A stretch of 64,000 bases of DNA from a virus (IMGVR_UViG_3300049783_001441), one strand, 5' to 3'; shown: positions 1 through 18,629, counted from the stretch's first letter. The notes: generated from the sequence alone by a model not told the origin. Numbers and translations: made by a program.

Positions 1-730
1 CGAGGTAAATACTGGTTGCTGACCATGCGGCGATGCCCGTTTGGCTCACCAGAGTCCAGTTACCCGCTTCGGCCACGGTGAAGGATCCCGCTGCGGTGTG
101 CCCTGCGGTGCTCTTCAGCAAGCGGACGCCCTCCGTCACAGGCTCGCCCGAGGCGTAGGTAGTTCCGCCAACGAACGCGGGGATCTCGTGAGTCGTTACT
201 GGGACGGAGGTAACTGCCGTCCACGAGCCGGCGCTGAAGACACCGGCGCTGGTGAAGGTTGCGCTAGCTTGGTAGACGATACCGCCCGAGTTGACCAGCT
301 CGTCCGCGAGGTAAACCGTCGTTGCGGCCCACGGTGCGATACCGGTCTGCCCGAGCAGTGTCCAGCTACCCGCTTCGGCCTCCGTGAAGGTGGCGGCTGA
401 CGTGTGGCCGGCAGTGCTGCGGAGCAAGCGGACGCCCTCGGTGGCGGTGCCGCCCGAGGCGTAGGTGGTGGCGGCGGTCCAGGCGATAACGTCGGTAGAC
501 GACGCGAGTGTGGACGCGGTTGAGGTCCACGCAGCGCCGCCATAGCGGAACGGCGCGGCGGTGCTACCCAACTGGATGTAGGTGTCTCCGGTCTGCAAAC
601 CGAGCAAAGTACCCGCCGCAATCAGGCTGGGGTCTAGGGTACCTGTGAAGGTGCGGTGTCCGTTTAGCTCAAGGGGTGCGACCCCATCACCGGAGGTTAC
701 GGTAAGGGCAGTGGCGATGGTCCGACTCAT
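1..730 (-). CDS. fibre-like virion protein, N-terminal part (C-terminus lies beyond the window start); contains tandem ~102-aa repeats
   Basis: rc ATG at 728-730 with GGAG 9 nt upstream; minus frame open to position 1 (not in the ORF track because there is no stop inside the window); a 306-nt direct repeat (56-84 vs 362-390; 1-9 vs 307-315) encodes repeated units of the type TYASG.TATEGVRLL.STAGHT.A..FT.AEAG.WTL..QTGIA.W.AT..YL. Confidence 0.55.
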   Translation of the reverse strand, partial: MSRTIATALTVTSGDGVAPLELNGHRTFTGTLDPSLIAAGTLLGLQTGDTYIQLGSTAAPFRYGGAAWTSTASTLASSTDVIAWTAATTYASGGTATEGVRLLRSTAGHTSAATFTEAEAGSWTLLGQTGIAPWAATTVYLADELVNSGGIVYQASATFTSAGVFSAGSWTAVTSVPVTTHEIPAFVGGTTYASGEPVTEGVRLLKSTAGHTAAGSFTVAEAGNWTLVSQTGIAAWSATSIYL

Positions 731-894
731 AGGGGACTCCAAAATGCAGGGTGTAGCTGTGCGTAAGTAAGATACAGCCTAGCATTAACCCAACACCGCG
801 CGCACTACAAACCCACCGGCGCTTAACGCCGAAAAGCCGCGACACTACAGTTAGCGGCGAGGCTTTGAGGTCTGCACTGACGAGCGTTTTCGGC

Positions 895-5870: not shown

Positions 5871-5884
5871 CCTGGAGTCCCACT

Positions 5885-6631
5885 ATGCCGAAAGCCCGCC
5901 CCACGAAAGCCCGACCCTTTTACCCCTTGGTGCGCAACCCGCTGGCAGCGGAGTTTGAGCCTAACCAAACCGGGGACGCCCTGGACCGGTTCTACACGCC
6001 GTGGCCGCTCGCGCGGTTCGTCGCGTCGTTCGTCAAGTCGGTGTGTCTGAAGCACGAGTTACCCGTGAACTCCGTCATTGAACCCTCGGTCGGTGGCGGC
6101 GCGCTCGCCATGGCGGCGCGCTCCCGGTGGCCGCACGCCTCGCTGCAACTGGTGGACCTCGACCCGGAGGCCGCCGGGCTCAAGCTGCCGCTGCACGAGC
6201 CGGAAGGAGTTACCGCCTACCACCAAGACTGGCTCACCTCGAAGCTACGCGCGGACCTAGTGCTTGCAAATCCCCCGTTCACGGGTGCCAACGCCCTGCC
6301 GCACGTATGGCACGCAATGGCTTGTGCGGACACCGTGGCGCTCTTGCTGCCCTTGTCCCTGCTCGGAGGCGTAGGGCGCTGGAAAACCACTGTGCAGGGG
6401 CGCGAGCACCGCCTCATAGCCGTTGGGGCCGTTCACCCGCGACCGTGGCCGCTTAGTCTTCGCGAATCCGCCGTGATGATCTGGACCCGGCACGTAACCG
6501 TGCATCACAAGCTGGACCTCGGACCGGAGCTAATCGCCACGCCCCGCTGGACGTGCGTAGCCCCGAAGGTGAGCAAAGCTAGCGCAGACGCCGCCCGTGC
6601 AAGGCGAGCTGGTCGCCGCTCTGCGGACTAG
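5885..6631 (+). CDS. N6-adenine DNA methyltransferase (NPPF)
   Basis: DRFYTP, motif I EPSVGGGALA, motif IV LANPPFTG; ATG 5885 with GGAG 8 nt upstream (the track ORF 5666-6631 is an upstream extension into the recombinase gene). Confidence 0.65.
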   Translation: MPKARPTKARPFYPLVRNPLAAEFEPNQTGDALDRFYTPWPLARFVASFVKSVCLKHELPVNSVIEPSVGGGALAMAARSRWPHASLQLVDLDPEAAGLKLPLHEPEGVTAYHQDWLTSKLRADLVLANPPFTGANALPHVWHAMACADTVALLLPLSLLGGVGRWKTTVQGREHRLIAVGAVHPRPWPLSLRESAVMIWTRHVTVHHKLDLGPELIATPRWTCVAPKVSKASADAARARRAGRRSAD

Positions 6632-7311
6632 AGCCCGTGGCGTAGCGCGCCTGGGTGGAACACTTCCATCGGATTGTAGCCGTGGTCGCCTTGCTCGTCA
6701 GCTCGCATAGCTAGGATAGCCGCCGCGGCGCGGGTCGCGCCGCCCGATACGCGGTAGGTCGCCCGCACGTTACCGCCAGAGTCTATGATCTCTTCCGGGT
6801 GGCCCGGTTCAGGGCTCCAACACACAGCAGTTGGTGGGCTGCCAAGGGGCCATTCAGGGCGGCCTATCTCGTCCGCAGACAGGGTAAACCCGGCGCAAGC
6901 GATGTCGATAAAGGCACCGAGCGCCGGGCACACTAACCACGCGTGCATTTCCGGTAATGTCTTCGCCGCGAGCTGCATTTTAACGTCGGGGTGGTCCCGC
7001 CCTTGCCACTCGAAGCCCACGCGGGACGGGCCACCGTCGTCGCCGCGCCCACCTTCAGTAAACTGGTGCCAATAGGCCGTACCCGCGACCACGTGCAGCC
7101 GTGGTAACCCCGCCTTTCTCGCAGCCGCAACCGCCGCATACGACGCGGTCACGCACTGTAAACCGAGCCCGCTCTCTGCGATTTTGTCCGGGTCCATACC
7201 TTCGCGTAGGAGGGTCCGGCCCACCAGCTCTGACAACCGGCAAAGCTGGTTGGCACGTACTGGACCGAGCAACCGGGGGTCTCGGCTTACTGTAACTTCT
7301 AGTTGTAGCAC
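6628..7311 (-). CDS. hypothetical protein (weak NlpC/P60-like Cys motif)
   Basis: GLQCVTASYAAVAAARKAGLPR resembles the DCSGLV..Y......G..LPR Cys box; otherwise unassigned; last gene of the minus-strand structural block. Confidence 0.4.
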   Translation of the reverse strand: MLQLEVTVSRDPRLLGPVRANQLCRLSELVGRTLLREGMDPDKIAESGLGLQCVTASYAAVAAARKAGLPRLHVVAGTAYWHQFTEGGRGDDGGPSRVGFEWQGRDHPDVKMQLAAKTLPEMHAWLVCPALGAFIDIACAGFTLSADEIGRPEWPLGSPPTAVCWSPEPGHPEEIIDSGGNVRATYRVSGGATRAAAAILAMRADEQGDHGYNPMEVFHPGALRHGL

Positions 7312-7324: not shown

Positions 7325-8470
7325 TTAGAATGCGCTCATAACGGTTCGCCGCCAACCGCCCGTGAACTTAATGTAGAGGTAGTCTACACCGCCGTCCGTC
7401 CCGTATGCGAAACAGCCCACCGAGGCCGTGGACAGAGACGCCGACGTTGCGATGGTGCCGTCAGCGGACAACGCGAGCCGCAGCCCTTGGTGCTCGTCGC
7501 CCGCCTTTTGCTCGATGTCTAGGGTCGCGGTGGCGTTCGTGCTCACCGCCGCGGCGTCCCCGTTGACCTTGTGCAGACCCGTGGTGCCCGCGACGAAGCC
7601 TGCGATGGTGTGGCCTAACGACGCCGTGCCGCTACCCGCGCCCTGGAAGTCGATCCCGAACGCCGCGCCTTGCGCTTCGGCGATGGCACCGCGCCCAACG
7701 GCGGCAGAATGCAACCCCTTAGCCTGCGAGCCGGTGCCGATAGCTACGCAGTCCGTGTCGCTTACCGACGCCCCTACGCCTATGGCCACGTAGTCCACGG
7801 CCCCCGCGCCGATTATGGTTCCAAAGCCAAAATCGTAGTTCCTGGCAGACACCGCCAGAACCGTGGACGCTGCCACGCCGCCCGTCAGTAGCAGGTCGGC
7901 TTGGTCCGTGCCTAGCAGCACTGTCGAGAAGCTCTTTAGCTGGGATGTCAGCGAGGTTACGGTCAGGGTGCCGACATTCGTGGTGCCCGTGTCGGTAACT
8001 GTCAGCAAGGTCGCCGCAGCGCCCACAACAAACTGTGAGTTGTTGACGCCCTCCGTCACCACGAAGCCGCTGGAGTCTCCGACGCCGTGTACGAAACGGC
8101 AGGTGGTGGTCGCAGTCGCCGCCCCGGCTACCGTCCAGTCAGCTTGTTGTAGCTGCGTCCAGTTAGCCCCGTCATACGCCGTGATGTCACCGGTAGTGAT
8201 GCCTGGGATGCTCGTGTCGGTCAGTGCCAGGAACGTGGTAACTCCGGCGCTTGCGCCCCCGGTTGCGATCCACGCCGCCCCATCGTAGCGCCACAAGCTG
8301 TCAGCGCTGGTGGTGTCTAGGAAGGTGTCACCGAGAGCAAGCTCGCGGAAGGTGTAACCAGCAGCGTTCGGGTCGCCGGCCCCTATAAACCACCGTGAAC
8401 CCCTTATCTTCATGGCGAAGATCCCGTCGCCCCCGGACAACTGGATGTTTTTGTACGCTGTGGGTGGCAT
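7325..8470 (-). CDS. Gly/Ala/Thr-rich fibre or spike protein
   Basis: 381 aa, low-complexity G/A/T/V-rich shaft-like sequence with an N-terminal conserved-looking domain (KNIQLSGGDGIFAMKIRGSRWFIGAGDPNAAG); immediately downstream of paralogue B. Confidence 0.55.
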   Translation of the reverse strand: MPPTAYKNIQLSGGDGIFAMKIRGSRWFIGAGDPNAAGYTFRELALGDTFLDTTSADSLWRYDGAAWIATGGASAGVTTFLALTDTSIPGITTGDITAYDGANWTQLQQADWTVAGAATATTTCRFVHGVGDSSGFVVTEGVNNSQFVVGAAATLLTVTDTGTTNVGTLTVTSLTSQLKSFSTVLLGTDQADLLLTGGVAASTVLAVSARNYDFGFGTIIGAGAVDYVAIGVGASVSDTDCVAIGTGSQAKGLHSAAVGRGAIAEAQGAAFGIDFQGAGSGTASLGHTIAGFVAGTTGLHKVNGDAAAVSTNATATLDIEQKAGDEHQGLRLALSADGTIATSASLSTASVGCFAYGTDGGVDYLYIKFTGGWRRTVMSAF

Positions 8471-8631
8471 GTGTGCTCCGCGTGGGTCTGGGGTCTTGCG
8501 CCGCGCAACCCGCGCCGGCAGCGCAAAGGCGCTAGCTGGTGACGGGTAACCCGGAAAAGTAGAGGCATAAAACAGAGCCGCCCCGCCCGAGCAAACGAAC
8601 AGGGCGGCGGTCAGTCAACCAGAGGGTCGAC

Positions 8632-9630
8632 TTACTTCGTGAGCATCATCGGAGCTTGCGGGCCGAACTTGCTACGGGCACCCGGATCAGACGAGGAGAC
8701 GGTCCGGTCTGGGAAGAGTGTAACGCGGATAACGACGCCAGGCTGGACAGCGTTGGCAACGGCGGGGAGGGCGTTCGTGCCGTCATCAATCGAGTCGAAC
8801 CCGGTGACGTTGGCCAGAACCGAGCCGCTGGTTGCCTTGCGGAAGAACGGAATGCGCAGGGTCAAGTATGCGCGGGTCTCTGGGGCCTTGACACTGTCGT
8901 CATGCAGCACAACGAGTGCTCCACGGTCGAGCTTGCGGGGCTTCAGGCCGGACGGGCTCTGGAGGCTTGCACCACCGGAGGTCTTGGCAGCGGCAGCGCC
9001 ATCAGAATCGCCAGCGTGGGCGCGGAAGATTCCTGGGAAGCATGAAACCAGGGCGCAATGCGTCGGGGAGTCTGCAACCGTGCGGCCACCGATCAGGTAA
9101 TCCTGCTCAAGCGTGCCCTTTTGGATGCTGTTAACGTCGGTGAGCAAGAGCGCTCCGTCGTCGTTGGAGTAAGCATCAACGGCCATGTGCGAGGCAAGGT
9201 ACTCTGCGGTCCAGGCTTCGCCGCCGGCAGGGAGGTTGTTGCGTGAAGTAGCAACGCCGCCATGGCCGGTTTCATTGTGGATGGACCCGAAAGTCCCGCC
9301 GTAGATATTGGTCTCGTCCAAGCCGCGAGCCGGTGCAGTCACGCCGCTGGTGTAGCGGTGGTAGCGGAACAAGGGGATGGCGATGAACTTTTCGGTGGCG
9401 TCCCACGAGATCGTGCCGGCGGGGTAACCGTTAGCAGTTTCCATGGCAGCCAACACGACGGCAGACGACAAGTCGCCACGCGGAATGATGATGCTGTCGT
9501 AAATCGGGTCATCGAGGCCAACGCGAGCGATGAAATCGCTGAAAATGTCGCCCTTGTTGAACTGGCCCATCTTGCAGCCGGCTGCGGCCACCGATGCGAT
9601 AGGGGATGAGAGGCGAGTGTTGTCGTTCAT
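8632..9630 (-). CDS. virion structural protein, paralogue B (333 aa from the ATG at 9630)
   Basis: paralogue of 895-1896; start MNDNTRLSSPIASVAAAGC with GGAG RBS; the track ORF extends to 9678. Confidence 0.55.
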   Translation of the reverse strand: MNDNTRLSSPIASVAAAGCKMGQFNKGDIFSDFIARVGLDDPIYDSIIIPRGDLSSAVVLAAMETANGYPAGTISWDATEKFIAIPLFRYHRYTSGVTAPARGLDETNIYGGTFGSIHNETGHGGVATSRNNLPAGGEAWTAEYLASHMAVDAYSNDDGALLLTDVNSIQKGTLEQDYLIGGRTVADSPTHCALVSCFPGIFRAHAGDSDGAAAAKTSGGASLQSPSGLKPRKLDRGALVVLHDDSVKAPETRAYLTLRIPFFRKATSGSVLANVTGFDSIDDGTNALPAVANAVQPGVVIRVTLFPDRTVSSSDPGARSKFGPQAPMMLTK

Positions 9631-9649: not shown

Positions 9650-10114
9650 TTACGCGGGTATAATAGTGGAAATTTCAAGATGAGAGAGGTTGTCTGGGCG
9701 GGTCTGCCCTAAAATGACTTCCGCAAAGAGTACCGGCCAACGCGGCGGCTTTACGGTGAAAGACGCATGTTCACGACTTACCAACTGTGCTGGTATGACT
9801 ACGCCTAAATGGGAGTGCGTTGCGTCGGCGAAAAACCGAACGGACAGCGCTCCCGGTGCGGCCCACTGTACGTCCAGCTTAGCTGCCGGCACCAGTGAGA
9901 ACACCATGCGAAAACCCAAGCCCCAGCTAAGGGGGTCGGCCCACAACAGGCCGCAATGGTTGCGGGCTAATTCCTTAGCCCTGGCCGCCTCTGGTTGGAG
10001 CACCCCATCGGCCACCACTGTAAATATCGGCCCTGGCTTATCCAGTGTGCCCGCCGCAAACCCCGTTCCAGGGGTTGACAGCAGCAGTAGCCTATTTTTC
10101 AGCGGTTCAGCCAT
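9650..10114 (-). CDS. hypothetical protein (154 aa)
   Basis: ORF in the operon upstream of paralogue B; no motif recognised. Confidence 0.45.
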   Translation of the reverse strand: MAEPLKNRLLLLSTPGTGFAAGTLDKPGPIFTVVADGVLQPEAARAKELARNHCGLLWADPLSWGLGFRMVFSLVPAAKLDVQWAAPGALSVRFFADATHSHLGVVIPAQLVSREHASFTVKPPRWPVLFAEVILGQTRPDNLSHLEISTIIPA

Positions 10115-10159: not shown

Positions 10160-10585
10160 TTAGTAGACGCTGGTGCCGTCGTCAAGGGTAACTGCGACCG
10201 TCACTTCGTCGTCTGCGCCGTCAGCGCCTTCAGCGATGGCTCCAGCGTTGGCACGCATTTCGCGGACATACTGAACGGTGGCGGGTGCGGACATTCCGAT
10301 AGCGAAGCCGGCTCCGACTTGCGCGGACGAGTCAACGCCAGCAGCGTTGAGGCCCATTGCGATTCCGGTGCCGACGACGGCTCCGGCGATAACGTCGGTC
10401 AGGACTCGCATCTTGGAGCCTTGCTCGGGAAGCCATTCGCCAGCGAAGCGCTCGATAAGGAACGAAGCGCCAACGCCCGCGCCAACTCCAGCAGCCGCGG
10501 GAGCGGCCATCATGCTGTAATCGATGACGGTGGACAGAGCGCCACCTTGCTGGCTAAGGTCCATGTAGTAGTTATCGGTGTTCAT
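10160..10585 (-). CDS. Gly/Ala-rich small hydrophobic protein
   Basis: 141 aa with several G/A-rich hydrophobic stretches (AAPAAAGVGAGVGASFLI, VIAGAVVGTGIAMGLNAAGV). Confidence 0.45.
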   Translation of the reverse strand: MNTDNYYMDLSQQGGALSTVIDYSMMAAPAAAGVGAGVGASFLIERFAGEWLPEQGSKMRVLTDVIAGAVVGTGIAMGLNAAGVDSSAQVGAGFAIGMSAPATVQYVREMRANAGAIAEGADGADDEVTVAVTLDDGTSVY

Positions 10586-10655: not shown

Positions 10656-11486
10656 TTACTCGGCAGATTTGCCAAGCGCCTTTAAGGGTGCGGTAACTCC
10701 GGCTAGCGCGCCTTTCAGCTCACTCCCGAAGTAAAACAACACCGCAAGAAACACTACAATTAGGACCACGGCGTAGTACGCCCCGGCTGATTGTATGAAG
10801 ACTTTGAAGATGTTTTTTGACCACTCGCTGAAGCCTCCCTTGGCTTCAATCGCGGTATCTTTTAACGCGGCCAGTGCCCTAGGCACCGTAGTAATCGCCA
10901 CCTCCAGCCCACCGTTTAGGGCTCGCGAGGCAGTTTCATACCAGCCCGAATCTAGCGGCTCTAGCTCGCCGTCCATAATCTCATTCGCCAGCCTAAAGGC
11001 CACCTGGGAGCCGAGGTTGCCAGCCACTCGCGCGGCTCCTCGGATGGTATCTTCGATGTCGCCGGTGCCGTTTGCACGGGGTATCGCGGGCAGGCCAGCC
11101 AGCCCCAGAATGTGGAGTGCGCTGAACTGCTCCCAACCGTAGGTAGCTTCCAGCCGGCCCAGCTTGCGGGCGGACGCGACCTTGAACTGGTCGTTACCGG
11201 TGTCGGCGTAGCCAACGGCGTAGATATACGCGGCGCGGACGTGCGCGCCAAAGTTGGTGCGTGGACGCATCATTACGCGGGCGGTAACATTGGACGGGGT
11301 GCCGTCTGGCACCAGGCTAACGAGCGCCGCCATGCTGGGGTTAGACGAGCCGGCGAGGCGAGTGTCCGAGCAGCCACAACCACCGGAGCTAGCCGCTACA
11401 GAGGCGATGGACGAGGCGAGGTGGGAGTCTTCGCAGGCCGAGCATTTCCCCTTATTCGTATTCCCGCAACCGGATAACTCACTCAT
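10656..11486 (-). CDS. Cys-rich protein with C-terminal transmembrane anchor
   Basis: N-terminus CGNTNKGKCSACEDSH...SSIASVAASSGGCGC shares the IASVAA..GC motif with both virion-protein paralogues; C-terminal helix AYYAVVLIVVFLAVLFYFG. Confidence 0.5.
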   Translation of the reverse strand: MSELSGCGNTNKGKCSACEDSHLASSIASVAASSGGCGCSDTRLAGSSNPSMAALVSLVPDGTPSNVTARVMMRPRTNFGAHVRAAYIYAVGYADTGNDQFKVASARKLGRLEATYGWEQFSALHILGLAGLPAIPRANGTGDIEDTIRGAARVAGNLGSQVAFRLANEIMDGELEPLDSGWYETASRALNGGLEVAITTVPRALAALKDTAIEAKGGFSEWSKNIFKVFIQSAGAYYAVVLIVVFLAVLFYFGSELKGALAGVTAPLKALGKSAE

Positions 11487-11865
11487 AGGTAACCTCTGTG
11501 AGACTTGCGCCCCTGCTGCTAGTCCACTTTAACACTGCTAGTAACCCGAAGGCCACCGCAATGCAGGCCAAAGTCCACACCCACCACGGGGTAGCTTTAA
11601 CTTTTTCGATTCCGGCCTCTGCTCGGTCCAGGCTGTCCACCCAAAAACCGCCCTCTTCCGAGCTTAGCGGATCCGAGCCCCAGTCCGAGTCTGTCGAATC
11701 TGACGGCACTAGGTCCGTGCTCTCTTCGCCAGACTGCGGGCTGGGGTCGGTGTAGCCGTTAGACGGGTCGTCCAAAGCGTCCTGCTTACTAGATAGCTGG
11801 TTTTTTAGCCGGTTTGCTAACCCGGCGGCGCGACCTGCTTGGAACTCTGGGAAGGGCTTACCCAC
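11479..11865 (-). CDS. tail-anchored membrane protein (acidic N-terminal domain)
   Basis: C-terminal helix WWVWTLACIAVAFGLLAVL. Confidence 0.45.
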   Translation of the reverse strand: MGKPFPEFQAGRAAGLANRLKNQLSSKQDALDDPSNGYTDPSPQSGEESTDLVPSDSTDSDWGSDPLSSEEGGFWVDSLDRAEAGIEKVKATPWWVWTLACIAVAFGLLAVLKWTSSRGASLTEVTYE

Positions 11866-11868
11866 GAG

Positions 11869-12390
11869 TTACCTCCGCCCGACGAGAACGAGCATTAACA
11901 CCACGAACAGGGCTGCGAGCGCCGCGGCTCCCAGCCCCACCCACTTCCAAGGGCTCTCTGTCTCCACCAAGTAATTCGCGGCGTCTTTCAGGATCGCCCC
12001 GGCAGACTTTGACTCTGCCGGTGGGGGTGTGTCCACACCGGGCGCGTCGTCGGGTTGGTGCGAAGCGTATTCGCGGAGCATGGCTAGCTCCACGATCTGC
12101 CAGTCAACCATGCGAGCATGGGCGTAGCGGTCGTTCGCCGTGGCCGTTGCCGGCGGGCTAACCTTAATCAAGGTCTGCTCGATGCGGCGGTCAGCTTCGG
12201 CGATAAACGCGCGCAAGCCTTTACTGTCCACTGGCGGGCTCTGGATGGCCGTGAACCAGTTAACCCCGCTAGCTTTGAGCCAGCTTAGGCGAGCGCCTAG
12301 CTGGGTGTAGGAACCGTCCTCGTAGGGGTAGTCTACGCCTTGAACGCCGGTGGGGTTGCTCGTGTGGCTATCGGTGGCATTATGCGGCAT
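11869..12390 (-). CDS. tail-anchored membrane protein
   Basis: C-terminal helix VGLGAAALAALFVVLMLVLVG. Confidence 0.45.
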   Translation of the reverse strand: MPHNATDSHTSNPTGVQGVDYPYEDGSYTQLGARLSWLKASGVNWFTAIQSPPVDSKGLRAFIAEADRRIEQTLIKVSPPATATANDRYAHARMVDWQIVELAMLREYASHQPDDAPGVDTPPPAESKSAGAILKDAANYLVETESPWKWVGLGAAALAALFVVLMLVLVGRR

Positions 12391-13333
12391 TGGACTTGCC
12401 TCCGAGTGTCTTCGCGAGGAGCACCACGAGCACGAGTGCGGCCACGAGAATCAGAGCCCCCGCCGCGTATGCAAAGTAGTTGGGCTTGTCGTCGGTCAAC
12501 CCGAACTCGCCGCCGGCATCGAGTTCGCCGTTGTTACCGGGCTCGTCAGGGCGGTCCATTCTGCGGCCGTCTTCGCGGTCCATTTTGGTGCTGTTACCTT
12601 CGCTGCGATCTTCGAGGGTGTCAGCGCCGGGTACGCCACGGGTCTTGATGCCCTCGGGGTGCTTGATGCGCTGCATGGCCGTAGAGTTTAGCACCTGCAA
12701 CCGCGCCGCTTCACCGTGGCCCGTGGTGATCACGCCACGCGTGCGGTAGGCCGCCACTGGGATCACGCCGCCGGTTAGTCCCGGCATCGGGACATCGGCC
12801 CAACTCTCTTTGAATGGGGTCAGCATGAAGCCCGCGCCGTACTTGCGGAGTAGCTGCCCTAGCTCGCGGTAACCTGCCCGCCACGCCTCTACTTCGGGCA
12901 GCGTGCGTGCAGCGGCACGGCGAGCCCTACCGGTCAGGGGATCAGCCGGGTTGGCCGATGGCCCGCTAGGGTTGAGCAATCGGCGCACCTTTTCAGGCAT
13001 CCGGCCCGGCCTGGCAACGACGTGTTTGATTACCTGCTTCCAAGTCTGGCCCAGAAACGGCTTAATCAGAGCTTGCAGGCGGATAGAGTCGCGGCCTACT
13101 TCGGCTGTCAGGTTCGCCATGCGCAGATAATAGTACGGGCGCATACCCGTAGACAGCCACAGGTTTTTGTGCGCTTGCTTTTTGGTGAGTACCGCCCGAA
13201 CGACCTCTTGCTGTGCGGCCTTTAGGAAGGCTTCGCGGTCGCTAGTACCCCACGATGGCCACAACTGGGCCGCGTCTAGCGCTAGTGTGGGTAAGTCTCG
13301 GGAAAGCCCCGCCGAAATGTCCGTGTGGCTCAT
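12380..13333 (-). CDS. tail-anchored membrane protein (317 aa)
   Basis: C-terminal helix FAYAAGALILVAALVLVVLLA. Confidence 0.5.
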   Translation of the reverse strand: MSHTDISAGLSRDLPTLALDAAQLWPSWGTSDREAFLKAAQQEVVRAVLTKKQAHKNLWLSTGMRPYYYLRMANLTAEVGRDSIRLQALIKPFLGQTWKQVIKHVVARPGRMPEKVRRLLNPSGPSANPADPLTGRARRAAARTLPEVEAWRAGYRELGQLLRKYGAGFMLTPFKESWADVPMPGLTGGVIPVAAYRTRGVITTGHGEAARLQVLNSTAMQRIKHPEGIKTRGVPGADTLEDRSEGNSTKMDREDGRRMDRPDEPGNNGELDAGGEFGLTDDKPNYFAYAAGALILVAALVLVVLLAKTLGGKSNAA

Positions 13334-13659
13334 GGCGAACCCCTTCGCGGTAACATGGCAATGATGAGCACAACAAGTGCCAGGATAACCACCACGACAA
13401 CCGATAGGCCGGCATAGTTCGTTGGGTTTAGCTGGCTAAGGGCCAGCTCTAAGTGTTGCTCCACGCGGAGCAACATCGCATACGTTTCGGCATCGCCAGC
13501 TCGGCGGGCACGCAACTTTTGCCGCTGCACCTCGGCGAGCTTGGCCGGGATACTGGCGCTGGTCTGTAGGTACGCGGATACGCCGGGGGCTAACGCCGCC
13601 AGGGTATCCGAGTCCAAACGCCCGACAATGTCGAGCGCAGCGCCAGTAACGTCAGCCAT
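13330..13659 (-). CDS. tail-anchored membrane protein
   Basis: C-terminal helix LSVVVVVILALVVLIIAML. Confidence 0.45.
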   Translation of the reverse strand: MADVTGAALDIVGRLDSDTLAALAPGVSAYLQTSASIPAKLAEVQRQKLRARRAGDAETYAMLLRVEQHLELALSQLNPTNYAGLSVVVVVILALVVLIIAMLPRRGSP

Positions 13660-13662
13660 GGC

Positions 13663-14106
13663 CTAGCCGCGAGCCTTGCTGATGCCGAGCGCAATGAGCA
13701 CACCCAACAGCACAAACACCACGAGACCAATCACGCGCCCTGGGGTTACCAGGGGTGCGGGAGGGGTGACTAGGGGGTTGTTACTGGTGGTGTCGTCAAG
13801 TTCGTCAAACACGTCCTCGCCAGCCGAACCCTTACCTTGAGCGGCGCGGATAAGTTCAGCGGCGGTCGGTCCGAGTGCGTCCACGAGGTCCGCAGCGAGA
13901 CGAGCAGCTTCCGCTGGGCTGATGCCGGAATCACCGGAGCCGCCGCCGGAATCTGGGGTGTCGCCACCGGTCTTTCTGCCGTTTTCGAGTGGGGCCTTAC
14001 CCGCGAGGCGAGCTTCGCTAAGCTGTGGTTGGCCGCCATCTTCTTCGAGCAACAGACGTTCGTATTCGGCCTCGTCGGGCCAGTCTTCTAGGGGTGGCAT
14101 AGGCAA
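13663..14106 (-). CDS. tail-anchored membrane protein
   Basis: C-terminal helix VIGLVVFVLLGVLIALGI. Confidence 0.45.
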   Translation of the reverse strand: MPMPPLEDWPDEAEYERLLLEEDGGQPQLSEARLAGKAPLENGRKTGGDTPDSGGGSGDSGISPAEAARLAADLVDALGPTAAELIRAAQGKGSAGEDVFDELDDTTSNNPLVTPPAPLVTPGRVIGLVVFVLLGVLIALGISKARG

Positions 14107-14124
14107 CTCCTCGGGCTTTACCCG

Positions 14125-14904
14125 TTAGGTTTGAGTCATTGTAACTGGTTTCCCGCCAAAATAGGCGGCAACAGCTAGTAGTAGCATGGCGGCAACGAGA
14201 AAAAACAAGTTACCACCTTTGGGTGCCCGACCGGCTCCGGCCAGCCACCCGTGGTTTCGGGCCGACGAGGTTACCACCCGGCTGGAGGTAGACCCGAAGG
14301 GCTCCCAGTCGGCGGTAGCGTCGGCTTCGCGGAATTGAATACTGCACGACACGTTACCTCGCGCGTCGGCGGCGCACTCTGGAGGCGTGCCGATGTCCAC
14401 AAAAATGTGGGTCGGGCTACCCGGCATATTTACCCCGCTGTCCGAGGTCCAGCGCTGCCCGTTGGGGTGGAACCCTGCGAGCATGAAGCGGTACGGAAGG
14501 CCGATAGAAGCCGCCGCAGCCGCCAGGAATACCGAGAAGTCGTCACAGTCCCCAAGCTGGTGCTCTATGGTGTCTAGCGGGTGCTGGATGTACTCTCCCG
14601 CCTCCAACACGTAGTAAAGGTTCTCCACGGCCCACTGGTGGATGGCACGGGCTTGGTTCACGTAGTCTCTGGGTGCTACTCTGGCCTTGCGGAGAATGCG
14701 GGTAACCACGAACACGCGCAACTCGTTGGCCTCCGCGGCCTCGTCGGAAACTTTGCGCAGACTGCCCAGCCGCTCGGACCACGACATTCGGTCCCACGAA
14801 GAGCGGGAGACTTGCGGGCCACGAATCGTGGGTACCGAAATCTTACGGGGCTTGCGCGGGCGACCTAGGCGGGTCTCGTCCATCACGGGTAAGGGGATCA
14901 GCAT
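14125..14904 (-). CDS. transglutaminase-like cysteine protease, C-terminally membrane-anchored
   Basis: Cys box GDCDDFSVFLAAAAASIGLPYRFMLAGF (cf. G.C.DFA.....L.RA.GIPAR.V.GY), His SPTHIFVDIG, then Asp; C-terminal helix LFFLVAAMLLLAVAAYFG. Confidence 0.6.
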   Translation of the reverse strand: MLIPLPVMDETRLGRPRKPRKISVPTIRGPQVSRSSWDRMSWSERLGSLRKVSDEAAEANELRVFVVTRILRKARVAPRDYVNQARAIHQWAVENLYYVLEAGEYIQHPLDTIEHQLGDCDDFSVFLAAAAASIGLPYRFMLAGFHPNGQRWTSDSGVNMPGSPTHIFVDIGTPPECAADARGNVSCSIQFREADATADWEPFGSTSSRVVTSSARNHGWLAGAGRAPKGGNLFFLVAAMLLLAVAAYFGGKPVTMTQT

Positions 14905-14907
14905 TGG

Positions 14908-15660
14908 TTACTCCGGGGCCGCTGCGAGGCGCAACGCCGTGTAGATGGCCACGATCAAAAGCACGACCATGAGGGCGGCCTTGCCGCCTACCCTTAACCG
15001 TTTGGCGTTGGCGAGGGACAGCATCGGTCGGCCCCCGGCAGCGCTGCTGCCTTTGTCGTGCGCCAGGGAGCCCGCAGCGGCAATCGCAGCGGCCTCGGTG
15101 GCGTTGTTCACCTCTGACGACTCGCGCGCCGCCCACGCCCCTAGAAACGACGTGTAAGCCGCTGTGCGGATACGGATGTGCGCGGCATTCCAGGCGTGCC
15201 GTTCGATGCGCCGCCCGAACAGTAACGCCAGATCCAGCACGCTCATATCCGACTCGCCTGCTGTCTTGACCGTGTCAGCCCAGCGGCCCGCGTCTAGCTC
15301 TTGCTCGATGAGGGCGCGGACGTTGGTTACCGGGTCAAGCCTCGGGTCTGCCGGGTGCGCGTATGCGCGACCTTCGCGGAATACCGGACCCGGCGGGTTC
15401 AGTATGCTGCCCGCGCCGTCTGGCACCTTCAGTTGGTGCAGCCCAACACTGAACTCCCGTGTACGCCCGTCTGGCCACTTCGTGTACGCAACAGCGTCGT
15501 TACGAAGGCGGCTTTCGGCCCACGCATTCGCCGCCGCAGCTAGGGTAAGTGCCGGAGTCGTGCCGTACTGGCCGTAAACCCGGATGAGCGTGGCTAGGTT
15601 CTGCCGCTGCTCTGCATTCAGGCTGGCAGCGGGTGTGAAGGCGGCTAGGGGTAGGCTCAC
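14908..15660 (-). CDS. tail-anchored membrane protein
   Basis: probable GTG start at 15658-15660 overlapping the upstream stop (GTGA); the track ORF extends to 15846, which is an implausible 190-nt overlap; C-terminal helix ALMVVLLIVAIYTALRLA. Confidence 0.45.
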   Translation of the reverse strand: MSLPLAAFTPAASLNAEQRQNLATLIRVYGQYGTTPALTLAAAANAWAESRLRNDAVAYTKWPDGRTREFSVGLHQLKVPDGAGSILNPPGPVFREGRAYAHPADPRLDPVTNVRALIEQELDAGRWADTVKTAGESDMSVLDLALLFGRRIERHAWNAAHIRIRTAAYTSFLGAWAARESSEVNNATEAAAIAAAGSLAHDKGSSAAGGRPMLSLANAKRLRVGGKAALMVVLLIVAIYTALRLAAAPE

Positions 15661-16286
15661 TTGGACCCCCGGAACTTGGACCACGCGAACACCGCTGCGA
15701 TTGTGACCAGCAGCACCAAGCCGAACGCTACGGAGCCTTTGGCTGCGACCTTGGCTGCGTCTCGCACGGGTTGGACGTAACTCGCGGCCTTGTCGGCAAC
15801 CCCGCTGATCCACGGCACAATGCCCTCGGACTTTGAGGGGTACCACGGTACCAAAGGTCCGCTCGCAGGCTGGTACTGGAACCGGCGGTTGTTGCCGGAA
15901 GCGCGGTGACTAACGTGGACGTGCCCGCCCTTGCTCGCGTGGTACAGGATTACCTGACCTACCGGAATATCCGGGTTCAGGTACAGGTACTCCATAAGGT
16001 CGCGCGACGTGCCTTCCACCGGCTTGACATCCGCAGCTTCGCCCTTGATGTGCTGGGAGTTATTGTTGCTCCCCACGCACGCACTGTTGTTGATTACGGC
16101 AGTTCGGAAGCCGCTTATGCGCTGTAGCCCGCCGAACTGCACCCACAACGGGTCCAGCACGTTGATAGCCAGCGCCATGAGCGCCGCCCTCTGGGTGGGG
16201 CTAGGCGTGTTGGGGTTACCCGCAGCGGCGGCGCAACCACTACGGGTAAGCGCCTCTTCGGACAGATACAGGCTAAGCATGGCCAC
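15657..16286 (-). CDS. LAS-family (peptidase M15-like) zinc metallopeptidase, C-terminally membrane-anchored
   Basis: SQHIKGEAADV matches S-x-H-x-x-G-x-A-x-D; second metal motif GGHVHVSH; C-terminal helix VAFGLVLLVTIAAVFAW. Confidence 0.65.
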   Translation of the reverse strand: MAMLSLYLSEEALTRSGCAAAAGNPNTPSPTQRAALMALAINVLDPLWVQFGGLQRISGFRTAVINNSACVGSNNNSQHIKGEAADVKPVEGTSRDLMEYLYLNPDIPVGQVILYHASKGGHVHVSHRASGNNRRFQYQPASGPLVPWYPSKSEGIVPWISGVADKAASYVQPVRDAAKVAAKGSVAFGLVLLVTIAAVFAWSKFRGSK

Positions 16287-16289
16287 GGG

Positions 16290-16892
16290 TTACCTCAACT
16301 TCGCGTAGGCGCGGGGTACGGTCATTGCGAGCAAGGCAAGGCTGATACTGACCAGCGCAATCAGCAGGTACAGACCCAACATACTCACCCGGCGTTGGTT
16401 GCGCTGTCCGGCTGTAATGCGGGTCTCGCGGGCTTTCTCGACCAACAGAGCGCCTTCGCGGGTAATGTCGCCCTGGAGGATAGCGGTTGCAGCCGCCTCC
16501 TTTTCGCGAGCGCCACCACCGTTTTTGGTGCGCATCTTCTCGATAGACTGCGCCAATTCTGCGGGGGTATCGTCAGAGTACTTGGCGTACACGCGGCGGT
16601 ACCGCTTGCTGAAGCCTTGCTCTTCCAGTTGGTTACGGATCAGCACCTTGGTCGGGTCCGTGTTGGCGGCCCCGGCTCCGATAGCACTACCTACGATCGA
16701 GACAACCGCGCCCGCAGCCGCCAAGGCGACATTGATCGGGGGTAACGGCAGCATTACGCCGATCGTGGTTAGTGCTGAACCCACCGCAACCGTGCCGCCG
16801 CCTATCGCCGTCTGCGCTGCGATACCTTTCTCTACCCGCTCAACTTCCGTTGGCGTTGGCGTGTGGAGTACGGGTGGCTGGGACGGCAGCAC
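16290..16892 (-). CDS. tail-anchored membrane protein
   Basis: hydrophobic ALAAAGAVVSIVGSAIGAGAA plus C-terminal helix LGLYLLIALVSISLALLAM. Confidence 0.45.
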   Translation of the reverse strand: MLPSQPPVLHTPTPTEVERVEKGIAAQTAIGGGTVAVGSALTTIGVMLPLPPINVALAAAGAVVSIVGSAIGAGAANTDPTKVLIRNQLEEQGFSKRYRRVYAKYSDDTPAELAQSIEKMRTKNGGGAREKEAAATAILQGDITREGALLVEKARETRITAGQRNQRRVSMLGLYLLIALVSISLALLAMTVPRAYAKLR

Positions 16893-17308
16893 TACGCCAC
16901 CTCAAGCGCCGCGTCCGGCCCCGGAGCCGGGAACAGCGCGACCAGCACGACTAGCGCAATGAGGGCGAAGATAGCGGCAACTCCGCCGATCCATGCCCAC
17001 TTGTTTTCGCCACGGAAAACGTCTAGGTAACTGGGTGGGTTCAGCAGCGCGTTTTCGGCGTCTTCGTTCGCTTGTAGCGCCAACTCTAGGTCCACGGCGG
17101 CTTGATCGAGGTCGCCTTCGTCGTTGGCGCAATCGTCGAGACGCCCTTCCCACTTGGCGTACCACGCGCTTAGCTTCTTATTGCGGTACGACTTCTTACC
17201 GTCCGCTTTGGCAGCCATGTAACCATCATACAGCCGTTGGGCCTTGGCGCACGAGGTCTTTTCAGGCGTGGCCGCTAGGCGGCTCGGGCTGGGTTTAGAT
17301 GGTCGCAT
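16892..17308 (-). CDS. tail-anchored membrane protein
   Basis: C-terminal helix WIGGVAAIFALIALVVLVALF. Confidence 0.45.
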   Translation of the reverse strand: MRPSKPSPSRLAATPEKTSCAKAQRLYDGYMAAKADGKKSYRNKKLSAWYAKWEGRLDDCANDEGDLDQAAVDLELALQANEDAENALLNPPSYLDVFRGENKWAWIGGVAAIFALIALVVLVALFPAPGPDAALEVA

Positions 17309-17411: not shown

Positions 17412-18629
17412 CTAGAAGTCGAGGTCAGCGACCGTAATCTGCGAGGTCTTGGTGGTCTTGCGGGGCTTGCGGGCCTTCGGCTTGGTGGTCTTTGCCTTCG
17501 GGGCGGCCTTTGCCTTTGCCTTTGCCTTTGCCTTTGCCTTCGGGGCGGCCTTTGCCTTCGGGGCGGCCTTCGGTGCGGCCTTTGCCTTGGCGCGGGCGGC
17601 GTCACGGGCAGCGTTGAGCTTCAGCCACTTGGCGGCTACTGGCTTGATCTTCGCGGCTTCGGCAGTGCTGGGCTTGTGCAGTTGCGACTGGCTGGAGACA
17701 GCCTTGACGCGGCCTTGCAGGCTTGCAGTAGCGCGGACAGTGAGCTTGCCCTTGCTAGCGCCGCTCGTGCCGCGGCCCACGTAGAAGCCAGTTACCCAAC
17801 CGGCACCAGTCTCGTAGCGCACGGGCTGGCCTAGCGACGGGACTGCGGTGAGCGCCTTACCGGAATCGGTGGCGGCGGTCTTCTTTGCGGCGGGAGCTTT
17901 GCGCTTCGCGGTAGCTTTGCGCGTAGCCGGAGCGGCGGTCTTCTTAGCGGCAGTCTTCTTTTTGGCCGGAGCTTTGCGCTTTGCCGGAGCGGTCTTCTTT
18001 GCAGCGGTCTTCTTTGCCTTGGTATCGCGCTCGCTAGTCGAGCCCGGCCCGCTGCGTGGGCGTCCGCCTGCCGGTGCCTTGGCGGTCTTGCGCTTCGCCG
18101 CGGGAGCTTTGCTCGTCGGAACCAGCTTCATGCCGCGGATAGCGGCGAGCGAGCGCAGCTCTGCGAGGGAGAGTTCCTTGCAGTTGGCCGCGGCAGCAGC
18201 GGTAACCGGAGCACCGAGTGCGAGCGACCATGACGAACCGCTCTTGTTGGCCTTGCTGCCGGCGAACTTGTAGTTCGCGAGGCAACGGGCCTGGGTGGCT
18301 GCGCCGGTAGCCTTGACGGCGATCTCGGCGACGTTACCCTTGCGGATAGACACTTTCACCGGGATGCTGGACAGCTTGCTGCCGGCACCGAGGCGGAGCT
18401 TAGCGGTGTACCAGACGGTAGCGCGCTTGGCGTTACCCTTGGTTTCCTTGCGGCGGTTGTTGATTGCGGCCTGAATCTTGGCGGACTCGGCAGCGGCGGG
18501 TGGGTAGCGTTTAAGCAGTGCTTTGGTAGCAACGATCATGGGAGGAACCTCCGTCCAAACGGACATAGTGTGCGGGGCTCCAAACAAAGCACCCGGAGAC
18601 AGGGTAACCCCTGGTCCGGGTAACGGCAA
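17412..18629 (-). CDS. Lys/Ala/Pro-rich histone-H1-like basic DNA-binding protein
   Basis: 405 aa; long KAKAAPKAAPKAKAAPKAKAKAKAK and KKTAAKKTAPAKRKAPAKKK tracts encoded by GCCTTT-type simple repeats (about 17500-17600). Confidence 0.55.
   Translation of the reverse strand: MPLPGPGVTLSPGALFGAPHTMSVWTEVPPMIVATKALLKRYPPAAAESAKIQAAINNRRKETKGNAKRATVWYTAKLRLGAGSKLSSIPVKVSIRKGNVAEIAVKATGAATQARCLANYKFAGSKANKSGSSWSLALGAPVTAAAAANCKELSLAELRSLAAIRGMKLVPTSKAPAAKRKTAKAPAGGRPRSGPGSTSERDTKAKKTAAKKTAPAKRKAPAKKKTAAKKTAAPATRKATAKRKAPAAKKTAATDSGKALTAVPSLGQPVRYETGAGWVTGFYVGRGTSGASKGKLTVRATASLQGRVKAVSSQSQLHKPSTAEAAKIKPVAAKWLKLNAARDAARAKAKAAPKAAPKAKAAPKAKAKAKAKAKAAPKAKTTKPKARKPRKTTKTSQITVADLDF

What the first reader, a model, noticed from the sequence alone, without database searches (positions are those of the whole stretch)
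10656..17308. Uninterrupted array of 11 genes whose products all end in a single C-terminal transmembrane helix
Every ORF from 10656 to 17308 (minus strand, tightly overlapping) encodes a soluble N-terminal domain followed by one hydrophobic helix within the last ~30 residues. That is a tail-anchored topology. Two carry recognisable enzymatic domains (transglutaminase-like protease, LAS/M15 peptidase). The array sits directly upstream of the virion-protein/fibre genes. In known phages this many consecutive tail-anchored proteins beside structural genes is the hallmark of internal-membrane viruses (the PRD1-like membrane protein set). It is not expected in a tailed-phage morphogenesis operon.
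Basis: partly seen in the sequence, partly recalled or inferred. Interest (0 to 1): 0.8.

Follow-up and report, generated by a model that had tools for sequence, protein, structure and literature searches.

The report
Conserved array of tail-anchored phage membrane proteins
Eleven back-to-back genes really do each encode a protein ending in one membrane helix, and the same gene set recurs in three other very different uncultured virus-like elements. It looks like the membrane kit of an unknown, possibly lipid-containing, bacterial virus, but this is unproven.

Summary
Eleven tightly packed minus-strand genes (17308 to 10656) each encode a protein with one strong C-terminal transmembrane helix and no N-terminal signal peptide. 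No other gene of 60 aa or more in my rough 80-gene call of the window passed the same strict test.

Three products carry cell-wall hydrolase domains. The third is a lysozyme/SLT-like protein.

The array belongs to a larger module: a very basic protein, 10-11 tail-anchored proteins, a hydrophobic ~140-aa protein, two beta-sandwich proteins and a fibre. An exhaustive profile search found the same module, in the same order, in three other metagenomic elements with 50-70% GC.

The host element is at least 91 kb and comes from ice metagenomes. It has no relatives in cultured phages, plasmids, IMG/VR or 185,000 species genomes. No terminase, portal, HK97 or double-jelly-roll capsid protein, or FtsK-type packaging ATPase was detected in it.

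PRD1 and Toil controls show that "all tail-anchored" is not the tectivirus pattern. In those phages the entry lysins, plus one Toil structural protein, end in a helix.

My best reading (about 0.4) is a virion membrane-protein set with membrane-bound entry lysins in a new virus lineage. The main rival (about 0.3) is a divergent tailed phage with M4Lys-like self-inserting lysis and envelope proteins.

The parts
17412..18629 (-). Very basic protein (ORF 405 aa; called as 369 aa; pI 11.4) with Lys/Ala-rich repeats. It heads the module and is a putative DNA-condensing protein.
   Evidence: Translation and pI. Proteins of pI 10.8-11.7 with the same C-terminal 'KGKRY.V'-type motif sit at the head of the array in L014 and L015. 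No Pfam or PHROG hit.
16892..17308 (-). Tail-anchored protein 1, 138 aa, helix at about 104-131
   Evidence: dG -3.5. Homolog in L015, 125 aa, E 6e-7.
16290..16892 (-). Tail-anchored protein 2, 200 aa. Gly/Ala-rich hydrophobic stretch at 35-73 plus a C-terminal helix at 169-193.
   Evidence: Homologs in L014 (225 aa) and L015 (218 aa), E 2e-17 and 5e-21. Alignment A5.
15657..16286 (-). Tail-anchored peptidase M15 (LAS-type zinc peptidase), 209 aa, helix at 184-203
   Evidence: Pfam PF08291, 29.1 bits against a cut-off of 23.2. PHROG 894 endolysin, E 3e-12. An H-x6-D motif and a later His cluster are readable in the translation.
14908..15660 (-). Tail-anchored lysozyme / lytic-transglycosylase-like protein, 250 aa, helix at 228-249
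   Evidence: Homologs in L014 and L015 (E about 1e-9) hit Pfam Phage_lysozyme2 (4e-9) and SLT_3/SLT. The catalytic-type 'AES' and 'GL.Q' motifs are conserved (A7). The window protein itself has no Pfam hit.
14125..14904 (-). Tail-anchored transglutaminase-like cysteine peptidase, 259 aa, helix at 233-251
   Evidence: Pfam PF01841, 33.2 bits against a cut-off of 23. Homologs in L014 and L015, E 6e-47 and 3e-51. Cys120, His166 and Asp195 are invariant (A3).
13663..14100 (-). Tail-anchored protein 6, 145 aa, acidic and Pro-rich N-domain, helix at 123-141
13330..13659 (-). Tail-anchored protein 7, 109 aa, helix at 82-104
   Evidence: dG -5.8. Homologs in L015 (110 aa, 2e-8) and L014 (115 aa, 4e-6).
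12380..13333 (-). Tail-anchored protein 8, 317 aa, helix at 286-307, N-domain unknown
   Evidence: The Atlas feature search gave nothing usable.
11869..12390 (-). Tail-anchored protein 9, 173 aa, helix at 150-171, ends in RR
11479..11865 (-). Tail-anchored protein 10, 128 aa, helix at 91-112
10656..11486 (-). Tail-anchored protein 11, 276 aa, helix at 233-257, Cys-rich N-terminus carrying an 'S.IAS..A..GC' peptide
   Evidence: Homolog in L014 (197 aa, 1.5e-6). Motif.
10160..10585 (-). 141-aa Gly/Ala-rich hydrophobic protein with an acidic tail. Its position is conserved (131-147 aa, two helices in relatives).
   Evidence: Weak PHROG holin/anti-holin hit, E 0.006.
9650..10114 (-). 154-aa soluble protein, predicted beta-sandwich at low confidence
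   Evidence: Family A4. AF2 pLDDT 48. Only generic beta-sandwich matches, Z of 5.4 or less.
8632..9630 (-). 332-aa jelly-roll-like protein. Candidate major structural or fibre-anchoring protein.
   Evidence: Paralog of 895-1896. Distant homologs at E 2e-32 to 9e-24. AF2 pLDDT 53, pTM 0.61. The best fold matches are all jelly rolls at Z of 4.8 or less.
8577..8608 (-). Strongest terminator-like hairpin of the region (13-bp stem plus T run), just after the 332-aa gene
   Evidence: The same placement occurs in L015. There are hairpins without a clear T run in L014.
7325..8470 (-). 381-aa fibre-like protein (Gly/Ala/Thr-rich repeats)
   Evidence: Homologs in L014 (424 aa) and L015 (413 aa), E 6e-12 and 9e-9. 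Its N-terminus is shared with the 2862-aa protein.
6628..7311 (-). 227-aa protein, last gene of the operon, unknown
895..1896 (-). 333-aa paralog of the jelly-roll-like protein, with its own promoter-like site
   Evidence: 48% identity, E 1e-99. Promoter-like site at 2020-1992.
1..742 (-). N-terminal part of a 2862-aa giant fibre-like protein that runs off the window
   Evidence: Full gene seen on L003, L004 and L011. N-terminal 85 aa are 36% identical to the 381-aa fibre.

Best explanation
The 11 genes form one operon. It is the core of a conserved module of about 16 genes: a highly basic DNA-binding-type protein, then 10-11 tail-anchored membrane proteins, then a small polytopic hydrophobic protein, then two beta-sandwich proteins, then a fibre.

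I read it as the virion membrane-protein set of a new lineage of bacterial virus-like elements whose particle contains a lipid membrane, either internal or an envelope.

Proposed mechanism (inferred):
- The proteins are made in the cytoplasm without signal peptides. They insert post-translationally by their C-terminal helices into a patch of host membrane that ends up in the particle.
- Their N-domains lie on one face of that membrane.
- Three of them (M15 peptidase, lysozyme/SLT-like, transglutaminase-like cysteine peptidase) are membrane-bound cell-wall cutters used at entry, as PRD1 P7 and Toil gp23 are thought to be.
- The others link the membrane to the shell and genome, or remodel it for DNA delivery.
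- The jelly-roll-like 332-aa protein is made in excess of the fibre, because a terminator follows its gene. It is either a shell protein or the base that holds the fibre.

Shown: topology class, operon structure, enzyme domains, conservation and synteny, and the absence of detectable tailed-phage hallmark genes.

Inferred: presence in the particle, presence of lipid, orientation in the membrane, and a role in entry.
For: (1) All 11 products have one C-terminal helix and no signal peptide.

(2) The module is conserved in order and in number of tail-anchored proteins (11 in L014, 10 in L015). These elements have 69.5%, 50% and 57% GC and come from other samples. Six of the 11 window proteins have detectable homologs there.

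(3) Tail-anchored wall hydrolases have a direct functional parallel in tectiviruses: PRD1 P7/P14 and Toil gp23 'entry lysozyme' end in a helix.

(4) Separate ordinary lysis genes exist, so the anchored enzymes need not be the lysis enzymes. These are muramidase PF11860 at 46692-47480, a CHAP+PG_binding endolysin with a two-helix 97-aa neighbour in L016, and a PG_binding_1 protein in L014.

(5) In about 91 kb of the element, no terminase, portal, HK97 capsid or tail gene was found by Pfam or PHROGs. The family is absent from IMG/VR.

(6) The 332-aa family models as a beta jelly roll. The best matches include single-jelly-roll capsid proteins of membrane-containing viruses: P23-77 VP16 at Z 4.8 and HCIV-1 at Z 4.1. 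These matches are weak.

(7) The strongest terminator-like hairpin lies right after the jelly-roll gene in both the window and L015. This fits a major structural product followed by a minor fibre.

(8) The fibres lack signal peptides and share an N-terminal anchor domain.
Against: - No capsid protein of any known lineage and no packaging ATPase were identified. The only Walker-A ATPase in the late operon is a MoxR-type AAA_5.
- The fold models are of low confidence (pLDDT 53 and 48). All structural matches are below Z 5.5, which the tool itself calls uninformative.
- A genome of 91 kb or more is, to my knowledge, far outside the size range of known membrane-containing bacterial viruses. The tectiviruses fetched here are 15-17 kb.
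- The 332-aa gene is duplicated together with a fibre. That fits a fibre adaptor better than a capsid protein.
- Short basic C-terminal ends (RR, RSR, KARG) would by the positive-inside rule put the N-domains outside the cell. This matches what was predicted for the tailed-phage endolysin M4Lys (PMC7143992).
- About 7 kb of the 98.8-kb contig was never seen.
- There is no particle, lipid or expression data.
Confidence: 0.4

Rival explanations
1. The element is a large tailed phage whose head and tail genes are too divergent, or lie in the unseen part, to be recognised. The array is a non-virion membrane complex acting late in infection. It would comprise self-inserting membrane-tethered endolysins of the M4Lys type plus accessory proteins for envelope disruption, lysis timing or superinfection exclusion. 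Lysis cassettes commonly sit next to fibre genes, which would explain the position.
For: - M4Lys of a tailed Salmonella phage is a wall hydrolase with a C-terminal helix and a basic tail. It lyses cells without holin or Sec.
- The window proteins have the same helix-plus-basic-end design.
- The 141-aa protein gives a weak holin/anti-holin PHROG hit.
- PolA, DUF3987 primase, helicases, an integrase, giant fibres and PHROG families such as phiTE_072 are typical of tailed phages.
- The weak fold matches of the 154-aa model include tail-tip and baseplate domains.
Against: - Eight of the eleven proteins have no enzyme domain, and lysis systems of this size are not known to me.
- Separate conventional endolysin and holin-like genes exist.
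- No TerL, portal, capsid, tape-measure or tail-tube gene was found among 82 proteins scanned with PHROGs or in the Pfam tables for about 91 kb.
- The module begins with a histone-like basic protein and ends with structural-type proteins in all relatives. That is not the layout of a lysis cassette.
Confidence: 0.3
2. The element is not a virus. It is a plasmid-like or integrative element that moves between cells in membrane vesicles or through a novel envelope-spanning apparatus. The array would be the membrane machinery, the hydrolases would open the wall, and the fibres would act as adhesins.
For: - No capsid or packaging genes were detected (same calls as above).
- A tyrosine recombinase, a methyltransferase, HU and HTH regulators are present.
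- The family is absent from IMG/VR.
- From my own recall, not checked here: the Antarctic haloarchaeal plasmid pR1SE spreads in vesicles carrying plasmid-encoded membrane proteins.
Against: - No relaxase, VirB4/VirD4 or FtsK/TraB-type ATPase was found by Pfam or by a Walker-A scan.
- Signal-less fibres with a shared N-terminal anchor, a jelly-roll-like partner, phage-type endolysins, and PHROG families elsewhere in the element all point to a virus.
- There were no hits in 72,556 plasmids, none in 185,000 species genomes, and 0 carriers in 36,145 genera. That is unusual for a resident plasmid or ICE.
Confidence: 0.15
3. The pattern is an artefact of ORF calling in GC-rich DNA or of chance hydrophobic C-termini.
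For: High-GC DNA gives many long spurious ORFs.
Against: - Independent gene calls agree.
- SD sites and start/stop overlaps are present.
- Two products reach Pfam gathering scores.
- Six families are conserved in elements with 50-70% GC, and the helix stays at the same place.
Confidence: 0.01

Closest known systems
Tail-anchored entry lysins of Tectiviridae (PRD1 P7/P14; Rhodococcus phage Toil gp23 'entry lysozyme' and gp26)
   Same: A wall-hydrolase or structural N-domain is followed by one C-terminal helix. The gene lies among virion membrane-protein genes close to spike genes. There is motif-level lysozyme/SLT resemblance (AES...GL.Q...R.DP..N) between family A7 and Toil gp23 (not significant).
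   Different: There is no significant sequence similarity. This element has three such enzymes of three different catalytic types, plus eight more tail-anchored proteins.
PRD1-like virion membrane protein set (P18, P32, P34, P11, P16, P20, P22)
   Same: A run of small membrane-protein genes lies inside the late structural operon, next to vertex or spike genes.
   Different: The PRD1 and Toil proteins are mostly 27-120 aa with N-terminal or central helices. Here all are C-terminally anchored, with 65-290-aa soluble N-domains. No DJR capsid protein, no P9-type ATPase and no protein-primed PolB were found, and the genome is at least 91 kb.
Single-jelly-roll two-capsid-protein viruses with an inner membrane (Thermus phage P23-77 VP16/VP17; HCIV-1)
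   Same: A small (147-154 aa) and a large (313-335 aa) beta-rich protein are encoded side by side, next to membrane-protein genes. VP16, VP17 and an HCIV-1 capsid chain are among the top fold matches of the 332-aa model (Z 4.8, 3.7, 4.1).
   Different: The matches are no better than those to lectins, CBMs and toxin domains. There is no adjacent packaging ATPase. The large protein is duplicated together with a fibre.
M4Lys, endolysin with C-terminal transmembrane domain of tailed Salmonella phage BSPM4 (PMC7143992)
   Same: A wall hydrolase with no signal peptide, one C-terminal helix and a basic end. The helix is needed for function.
   Different: M4Lys is a single protein in a lysis cassette of a flagellotropic tailed phage. 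It is not part of a conserved 10-11-gene array.
Bacterial tail-anchored membrane proteins (PMC3087755; PMC6794478)
   Same: Same defining topology: no N-terminal signal and a single helix at the extreme C-terminus. By analogy, insertion would be post-translational.
   Different: In my understanding these are scattered cellular genes, not arrays. I did not check the two papers for this point.

Membership tests
Tail-anchored membrane protein (topology class) | Single transmembrane helix within about the last 40-45 residues | tested here: met
   All 11: KD 2.2-3.5, Hessa-sum dG -0.6 to -5.8, 1-19 residues after the uncharged stretch. DeepTMHMM or TMHMM were not available.
Tail-anchored membrane protein (topology class) | No N-terminal signal peptide or other helix | tested here: met
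   There is no N-terminal hydrophobic core (max KD over 10 residues is 1.7 or less in the first 40 aa) and no second window with dG below 1. Protein 2 has a moderately hydrophobic Gly/Ala stretch.
Tail-anchored membrane protein (topology class) | Post-translational insertion with the N-domain in the cytoplasm | not testable with these tools
   The basic C-terminal ends leave the orientation open.
Peptidase M15 (PF08291), for 15657-16286 | Profile match above the gathering score, and zinc ligands H-x6-D...H | tested here: met
   29.1 bits against 23.2. The motifs are readable in the translation. PHROG endolysin, E 3e-12.
Transglutaminase-like core (PF01841), for 14125-14904 | Profile match above the gathering score, and a Cys-His-Asp triad | tested here: met
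   33.2 bits against 23. Cys120, His166 and Asp195 are invariant in three homologs. The assignment of Asp is by position only.
Lysozyme-like / lytic transglycosylase (PF18013, SLT), for 14908-15660 | Profile match, and a catalytic Glu in an 'ES' motif | tested here: inconclusive
   The window protein has no Pfam hit. Its two homologs hit PF18013 (best 4e-9) and SLT_3. 'AES' and 'GL.Q' are conserved. The PDB profile search gave only a muramidase at E 0.29.
Tectiviridae / PRD1-like (Kalamavirales) | Double-jelly-roll major capsid protein | tested here: inconclusive
   None was found by Pfam, PHROGs or phmmer with PRD1 P3 and Toil gp14 (and others). The 332-aa model looks like a single jelly roll, at low confidence.
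Tectiviridae / PRD1-like (Kalamavirales) | FtsK/HerA-type packaging ATPase (P9-like) | tested here: inconclusive
   There was no phmmer hit with PRD1 P9 or Toil gp12. No such Pfam family occurs in about 91 kb. The only late-operon Walker A is AAA_5. About 7 kb is unseen.
Tectiviridae / PRD1-like (Kalamavirales) | Small (about 15-18 kb) linear genome with protein-primed family B polymerase | tested here: not met
   The element is at least 91 kb (longest contig 98,770 bp). It encodes a split family A polymerase.
Caudoviricetes (tailed phages) | Terminase large subunit, portal, HK97-fold capsid protein, tail genes | tested here: inconclusive
   None was detected by Pfam (precomputed tables) or PHROGs. 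No structure-based search of all ORFs was possible.
Sortase / exosortase-type C-terminal sorting signals (LPXTG, PEP-CTERM and the like) | N-terminal signal peptide plus a conserved motif just before the helix and a basic tail | tested here: not met
   A helix plus basic tail is present. No signal peptide and no shared motif precede the helices (and reading).

The most novel reading that the evidence does not exclude
These elements are a new high-rank lineage of bacterial viruses, or virus-like transfer particles. Genomes reach about 90-100 kb. The particle is built around a lipid membrane carrying about 11 tail-anchored proteins, a histone-like core protein and jelly-roll proteins. They have neither the HK97/portal/terminase set nor the DJR/FtsK set. 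That would be a third way for bacterial dsDNA elements to build a particle.
Probability: 0.15. Interest if true: 0.92.

Novelty: new variant of a known kind. Interest (0 to 1): 0.72.

Why it matters
To my knowledge, membrane-containing bacterial viruses are few, small and hard to detect by sequence. If this module marks lipid-containing particles, it gives a sequence signature that current virus-detection catalogues miss: it is absent from IMG/VR. The signature is a basic protein, a tail-anchored array including a transglutaminase-like and a lysozyme-like protein, a jelly-roll protein and a fibre.

It would also extend such viruses to genomes several times larger than those known. Independently of the virion question, three membrane-tethered wall hydrolases of different chemistry in one operon would be new reagents. 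They would also be a test case for how bacteria insert tail-anchored proteins.

Tried and rejected
- **DNA similarity.** blastn of the region against phages and plasmids gave no match.
- **Protein similarity to cultured records.** tblastn of the TGase, the 332-aa protein and the 200-aa protein against phages, and of the 332-aa protein against plasmids, gave no match.
- **IMG/VR.** Scans with the TGase, M15, A1, A2 and A3 found none.
- **Species genomes.** Genome-contig scans with A1 and A2 found none. The census of 36,145 genera found 0 carriers.
- **Word-indexed homology searches.** These found only the element itself or the relatives already known. They missed relatives that HMMER found.
- **Metagenome scan with the TGase profile.** It returned only generic transglutaminase-domain proteins without the module.
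- **PDB sequence searches.** Nothing useful.
- **ESM Atlas.** No usable hit for the 332-aa or the 317-aa protein.
- **Foldseek.** The 332-aa model had no match at E of 0.001 or better against PDB or BFVD.
- **Complex prediction.** 332-aa family against the fibre N-terminus: no verdict.
- **Expression.** No RNA holder was listed among the sequencing runs.
- **Whole genome.** No whole genome is held for the window. Records behind the loci could not be opened, so about 7 kb of the 98.8-kb contig stayed unseen.
- **Readings considered and rejected for the N-termini and C-termini:**
  - Lipoprotein signal: the conserved Cys is not preceded by a hydrophobic core.
  - Tat signal: no RR followed by a hydrophobic region.
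  - Sortase or PEP-CTERM-type sorting: no signal peptide and no motif.
- **hhalign.** A7 against PRD1 P7 and against Toil gp23 gave only motif-level, non-significant matches.

Full report
**Observation.** The minus strand from 17308 to 10656 holds eleven ORFs. Gene calls on near-identical contigs from other samples give the same eleven genes: 138, 200, 209, 250, 259, 145, 109, 317, 173, 128 and 276 aa.

Each product has a single uncharged hydrophobic stretch of 19-28 residues near its C-terminus. Kyte-Doolittle scores are 2.2-3.5. The summed Hessa-scale free energy is negative for the best 19-residue window in all eleven, and no second candidate helix exists in any of them. None has an N-terminal hydrophobic signal core. 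After the helix come only 1-19 residues, usually with one to three Arg or Lys.

Genes overlap by 1-11 nt or are separated by 3-24 nt. Most have a GGAG/GAGG site upstream. No strong terminator-like site lies inside the array, so it is most likely one transcription unit.

In my rough gene call of the window, every protein that passes the strict tail-anchor test lies in this array. A tailed Microbacterium phage used as a control has four helix-bearing proteins among 62, all under 91 aa, and never more than two adjacent.

**Enzymes.** Pfam confirms the M15 peptidase (15657-16286) and the transglutaminase-like core (14125-14904), both above their gathering scores. PHROGs files the M15 protein with endolysins.

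The 250-aa protein (14908-15660) has homologs that hit Phage_lysozyme2 and SLT families, and it keeps the catalytic-type AES and GL.Q motifs. In the transglutaminase-like family, Cys, His and an Asp are invariant.

**The array is part of a conserved module.**
- The 332-aa protein downstream (8632-9630) has a 48%-identical paralog at 895-1896.
- Each paralog is followed by a fibre-like protein. One is 381 aa. The other is a 2862-aa giant that runs off the window.
- The first ~85 residues of the two fibre-like proteins are 36% identical.
- An exhaustive HMMER search with the two paralogs found three distant homologs (E 2e-32 to 9e-24).
- Their contigs have 69.5%, 50% and 57% GC. Where the contig is long enough (L014, L015/L016), they carry the same gene order:
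  - a transglutaminase-like tail-anchored protein;
  - six or seven further small C-terminally anchored proteins;
  - a 131-147-aa two-helix protein;
  - a ~147-aa soluble protein;
  - the 313-335-aa protein;
  - a 413-424-aa fibre.
- On the divergent strand beside it lie a very basic protein (pI 10.8-11.7) and three more tail-anchored proteins. These include the lysozyme-like one and the homolog of the window's 200-aa protein.
- L014 has eleven tail-anchored proteins and L015 ten.
- phmmer links six of the window's eleven proteins to counterparts there. It also links the 154-, 332- and 381-aa proteins.
- The window's basic protein (17412-18629, pI 11.4) heads its array in the same way.
- Conservation of the topology, number and order across such different base compositions rules out chance and argues for one machine.

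**What the element is.** Only near-identical copies exist, all in ice metagenomes. The longest contig is 98,770 bp. By walking along contigs I saw about 91 kb, from about 20 kb left of the window to 7 kb right of it.

Recognisable genes are:
- a split family A DNA polymerase, a tyrosine recombinase and a methyltransferase;
- a DUF3987 primase, ResIII and RecD/PIF1-type helicases, and a 2112-aa giant helicase;
- HU, HTH regulators and a PF11860 muramidase;
- an SPFH lipoprotein;
- a MoxR-type AAA_5 ATPase followed by a protein with an acidic spacer and a DxSGS motif suggestive of a VWA domain. The VWA assignment is by reading only, with no profile hit.

No terminase, portal, capsid, tail, relaxase, VirB4 or FtsK-type gene was found. 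This holds for the Pfam tables and for the 82 proteins scanned with PHROGs. It also holds for a Walker-A scan.

The module has no relatives in cultured phages, plasmids, IMG/VR, 185,000 species genomes or a census of 36,145 genera.

**Folds.** AlphaFold2 on five sequences of the 332-aa family gave pLDDT 53 and pTM 0.61, with a beta-rich core. Foldseek found nothing significant.

The exhaustive aligner's best matches were all jelly rolls at Z of 4.8 or less. They were a geminivirus coat protein, P23-77 VP16, Tc-toxin receptor-binding domains, an HCIV-1 capsid protein, and CBMs. That suggests a jelly-roll-like sandwich and no more.

The 154-aa family modelled poorly (pLDDT 48) and matched only generic sandwiches.

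**Regulatory hint.** The strongest terminator-like hairpin of the region lies immediately after the 332-aa gene (8608-8577). The same is true after its homolog in L015. L014 has GC-rich hairpins in the equivalent 120-nt gap, but they are not significant. Everything upstream would then be made in excess of the fibre, as expected for major versus vertex components. This is an inference.

In PRD1 the membrane proteins are 27-117 aa with N-terminal or central helices. Only the transglycosylase P7 and its internal product P14 end in a helix.

In Toil the same holds. Only gp23 ('entry lysozyme') and gp26 (a virion protein) are C-terminally anchored.

So a tail-anchored wall hydrolase is a genuine tectivirus feature, but an all-tail-anchored array is not their hallmark. 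No sequence similarity links the two groups.

A tailed phage also has a precedent. M4Lys is an endolysin with a C-terminal helix and a basic end, and it lyses cells without holin or Sec (PMC7143992).

**Mechanism.** My best reading (0.4) is that the module encodes the membrane-associated part of a lipid-containing particle. The tail-anchored proteins insert post-translationally into the membrane patch that is taken into the particle. The three hydrolases act as membrane-bound entry enzymes. The basic protein condenses DNA. The jelly-roll protein forms a shell or fibre base.

The main rival (0.3) is a divergent tailed phage in which the array is a late membrane complex for lysis or envelope handling. 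A non-viral, vesicle- or contact-mediated transfer element is a third option (0.15).

What would separate these readings is listed under decisive next steps. The key missing data are complete genomes with structure-based annotation, and particle biochemistry.

**Limits.**
- Helix prediction rests on hydrophobicity scales, not on a trained predictor.
- Both fold models are of low confidence.
- About 7 kb of the longest contig was not seen.
- The relatives are known only from contigs of 2-13 kb.

Noticed in passing
window 895-1896 and 8632-9630; 1-742 and 7325-8470: There is a duplicated pair of genes, 'jelly-roll-like protein + fibre'. The two fibres (381 aa and a 2862-aa giant) share only their first ~85 residues. 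This looks like exchangeable receptor-binding proteins on a common anchor, each with its own partner protein.
   Followed up: partly
window 10656-11486, 8632-9630, 895-1896 (N-termini): A short peptide of the form L-x-S-x-I-A-S-x-A-A..G-C occurs near the N-terminus of exactly three proteins of the element: the last tail-anchored protein and both jelly-roll paralogs. The Cys is invariant in all five members of the 332-aa family. It could be a shared processing, attachment or interaction site.
   Followed up: partly
L014 7086-7603; L015 5134-5379; window 10656-11486: Several small tail-anchored proteins start with paired cysteines (C-x-C, for example M-A-C-A-C, M-P-C-S-C, G-C-G-C). This is conserved across elements and unexplained.
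   Followed up: no
window 20690-23400: A MoxR-type AAA_5 ATPase is followed by a 558-aa protein with a ~250-residue Asp/Glu/Gly-rich spacer and a C-terminal DxSGS motif suggestive of a VWA domain (read by eye, no profile hit). Next come a 651-689-aa highly acidic protein and then the very basic protein. All lie in the same long minus-strand operon as the array.
   Followed up: partly
window 2210-6631 (+ strand): A replication and recombination island is inserted in the opposite orientation between the two fibre sets. It holds a family A polymerase split into exonuclease and polymerase genes, a 270-aa tyrosine recombinase and a methyltransferase.
   Followed up: partly
window 31562-32359: An SPFH/Band-7 protein with a lipoprotein signal (lipobox L-T-S-A-C), PHROG 200 at E 6e-48, sits in the late operon.
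   Followed up: no
window 25709-26781: Adjacent 91-aa and 266-aa genes share an N-terminal domain and appear to be local paralogs, by visual comparison of the translations. No function is known.
   Followed up: no
L015 9196-10086 / L016 3912-4802: In the 50%-GC relative, a patatin-like phospholipase gene directly follows the fibre gene. A lipid-cutting enzyme in this position would fit a membrane-related entry or exit step.
   Followed up: no
window 40668-40967 (+ strand): A 99-aa protein outside the array also ends in a hydrophobic helix followed by a basic end (S-L-T-R-R). Its KD is 2.19, but it did not pass the stricter dG test.
   Followed up: no
window 44289-44627; L015 10643-11023: A 112-aa protein of the window is homologous (E 4e-13) to a DUF6321-like gene of the L015/L016 element. 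The relationship between the elements therefore extends beyond the module.
   Followed up: no
whole window: All holders of this DNA among public runs are ice metagenomes of one year. The word-indexed protein search missed relatives (for example the TGase homologs at E 1e-47 to 1e-51) that plain HMMER found.
   Followed up: partly
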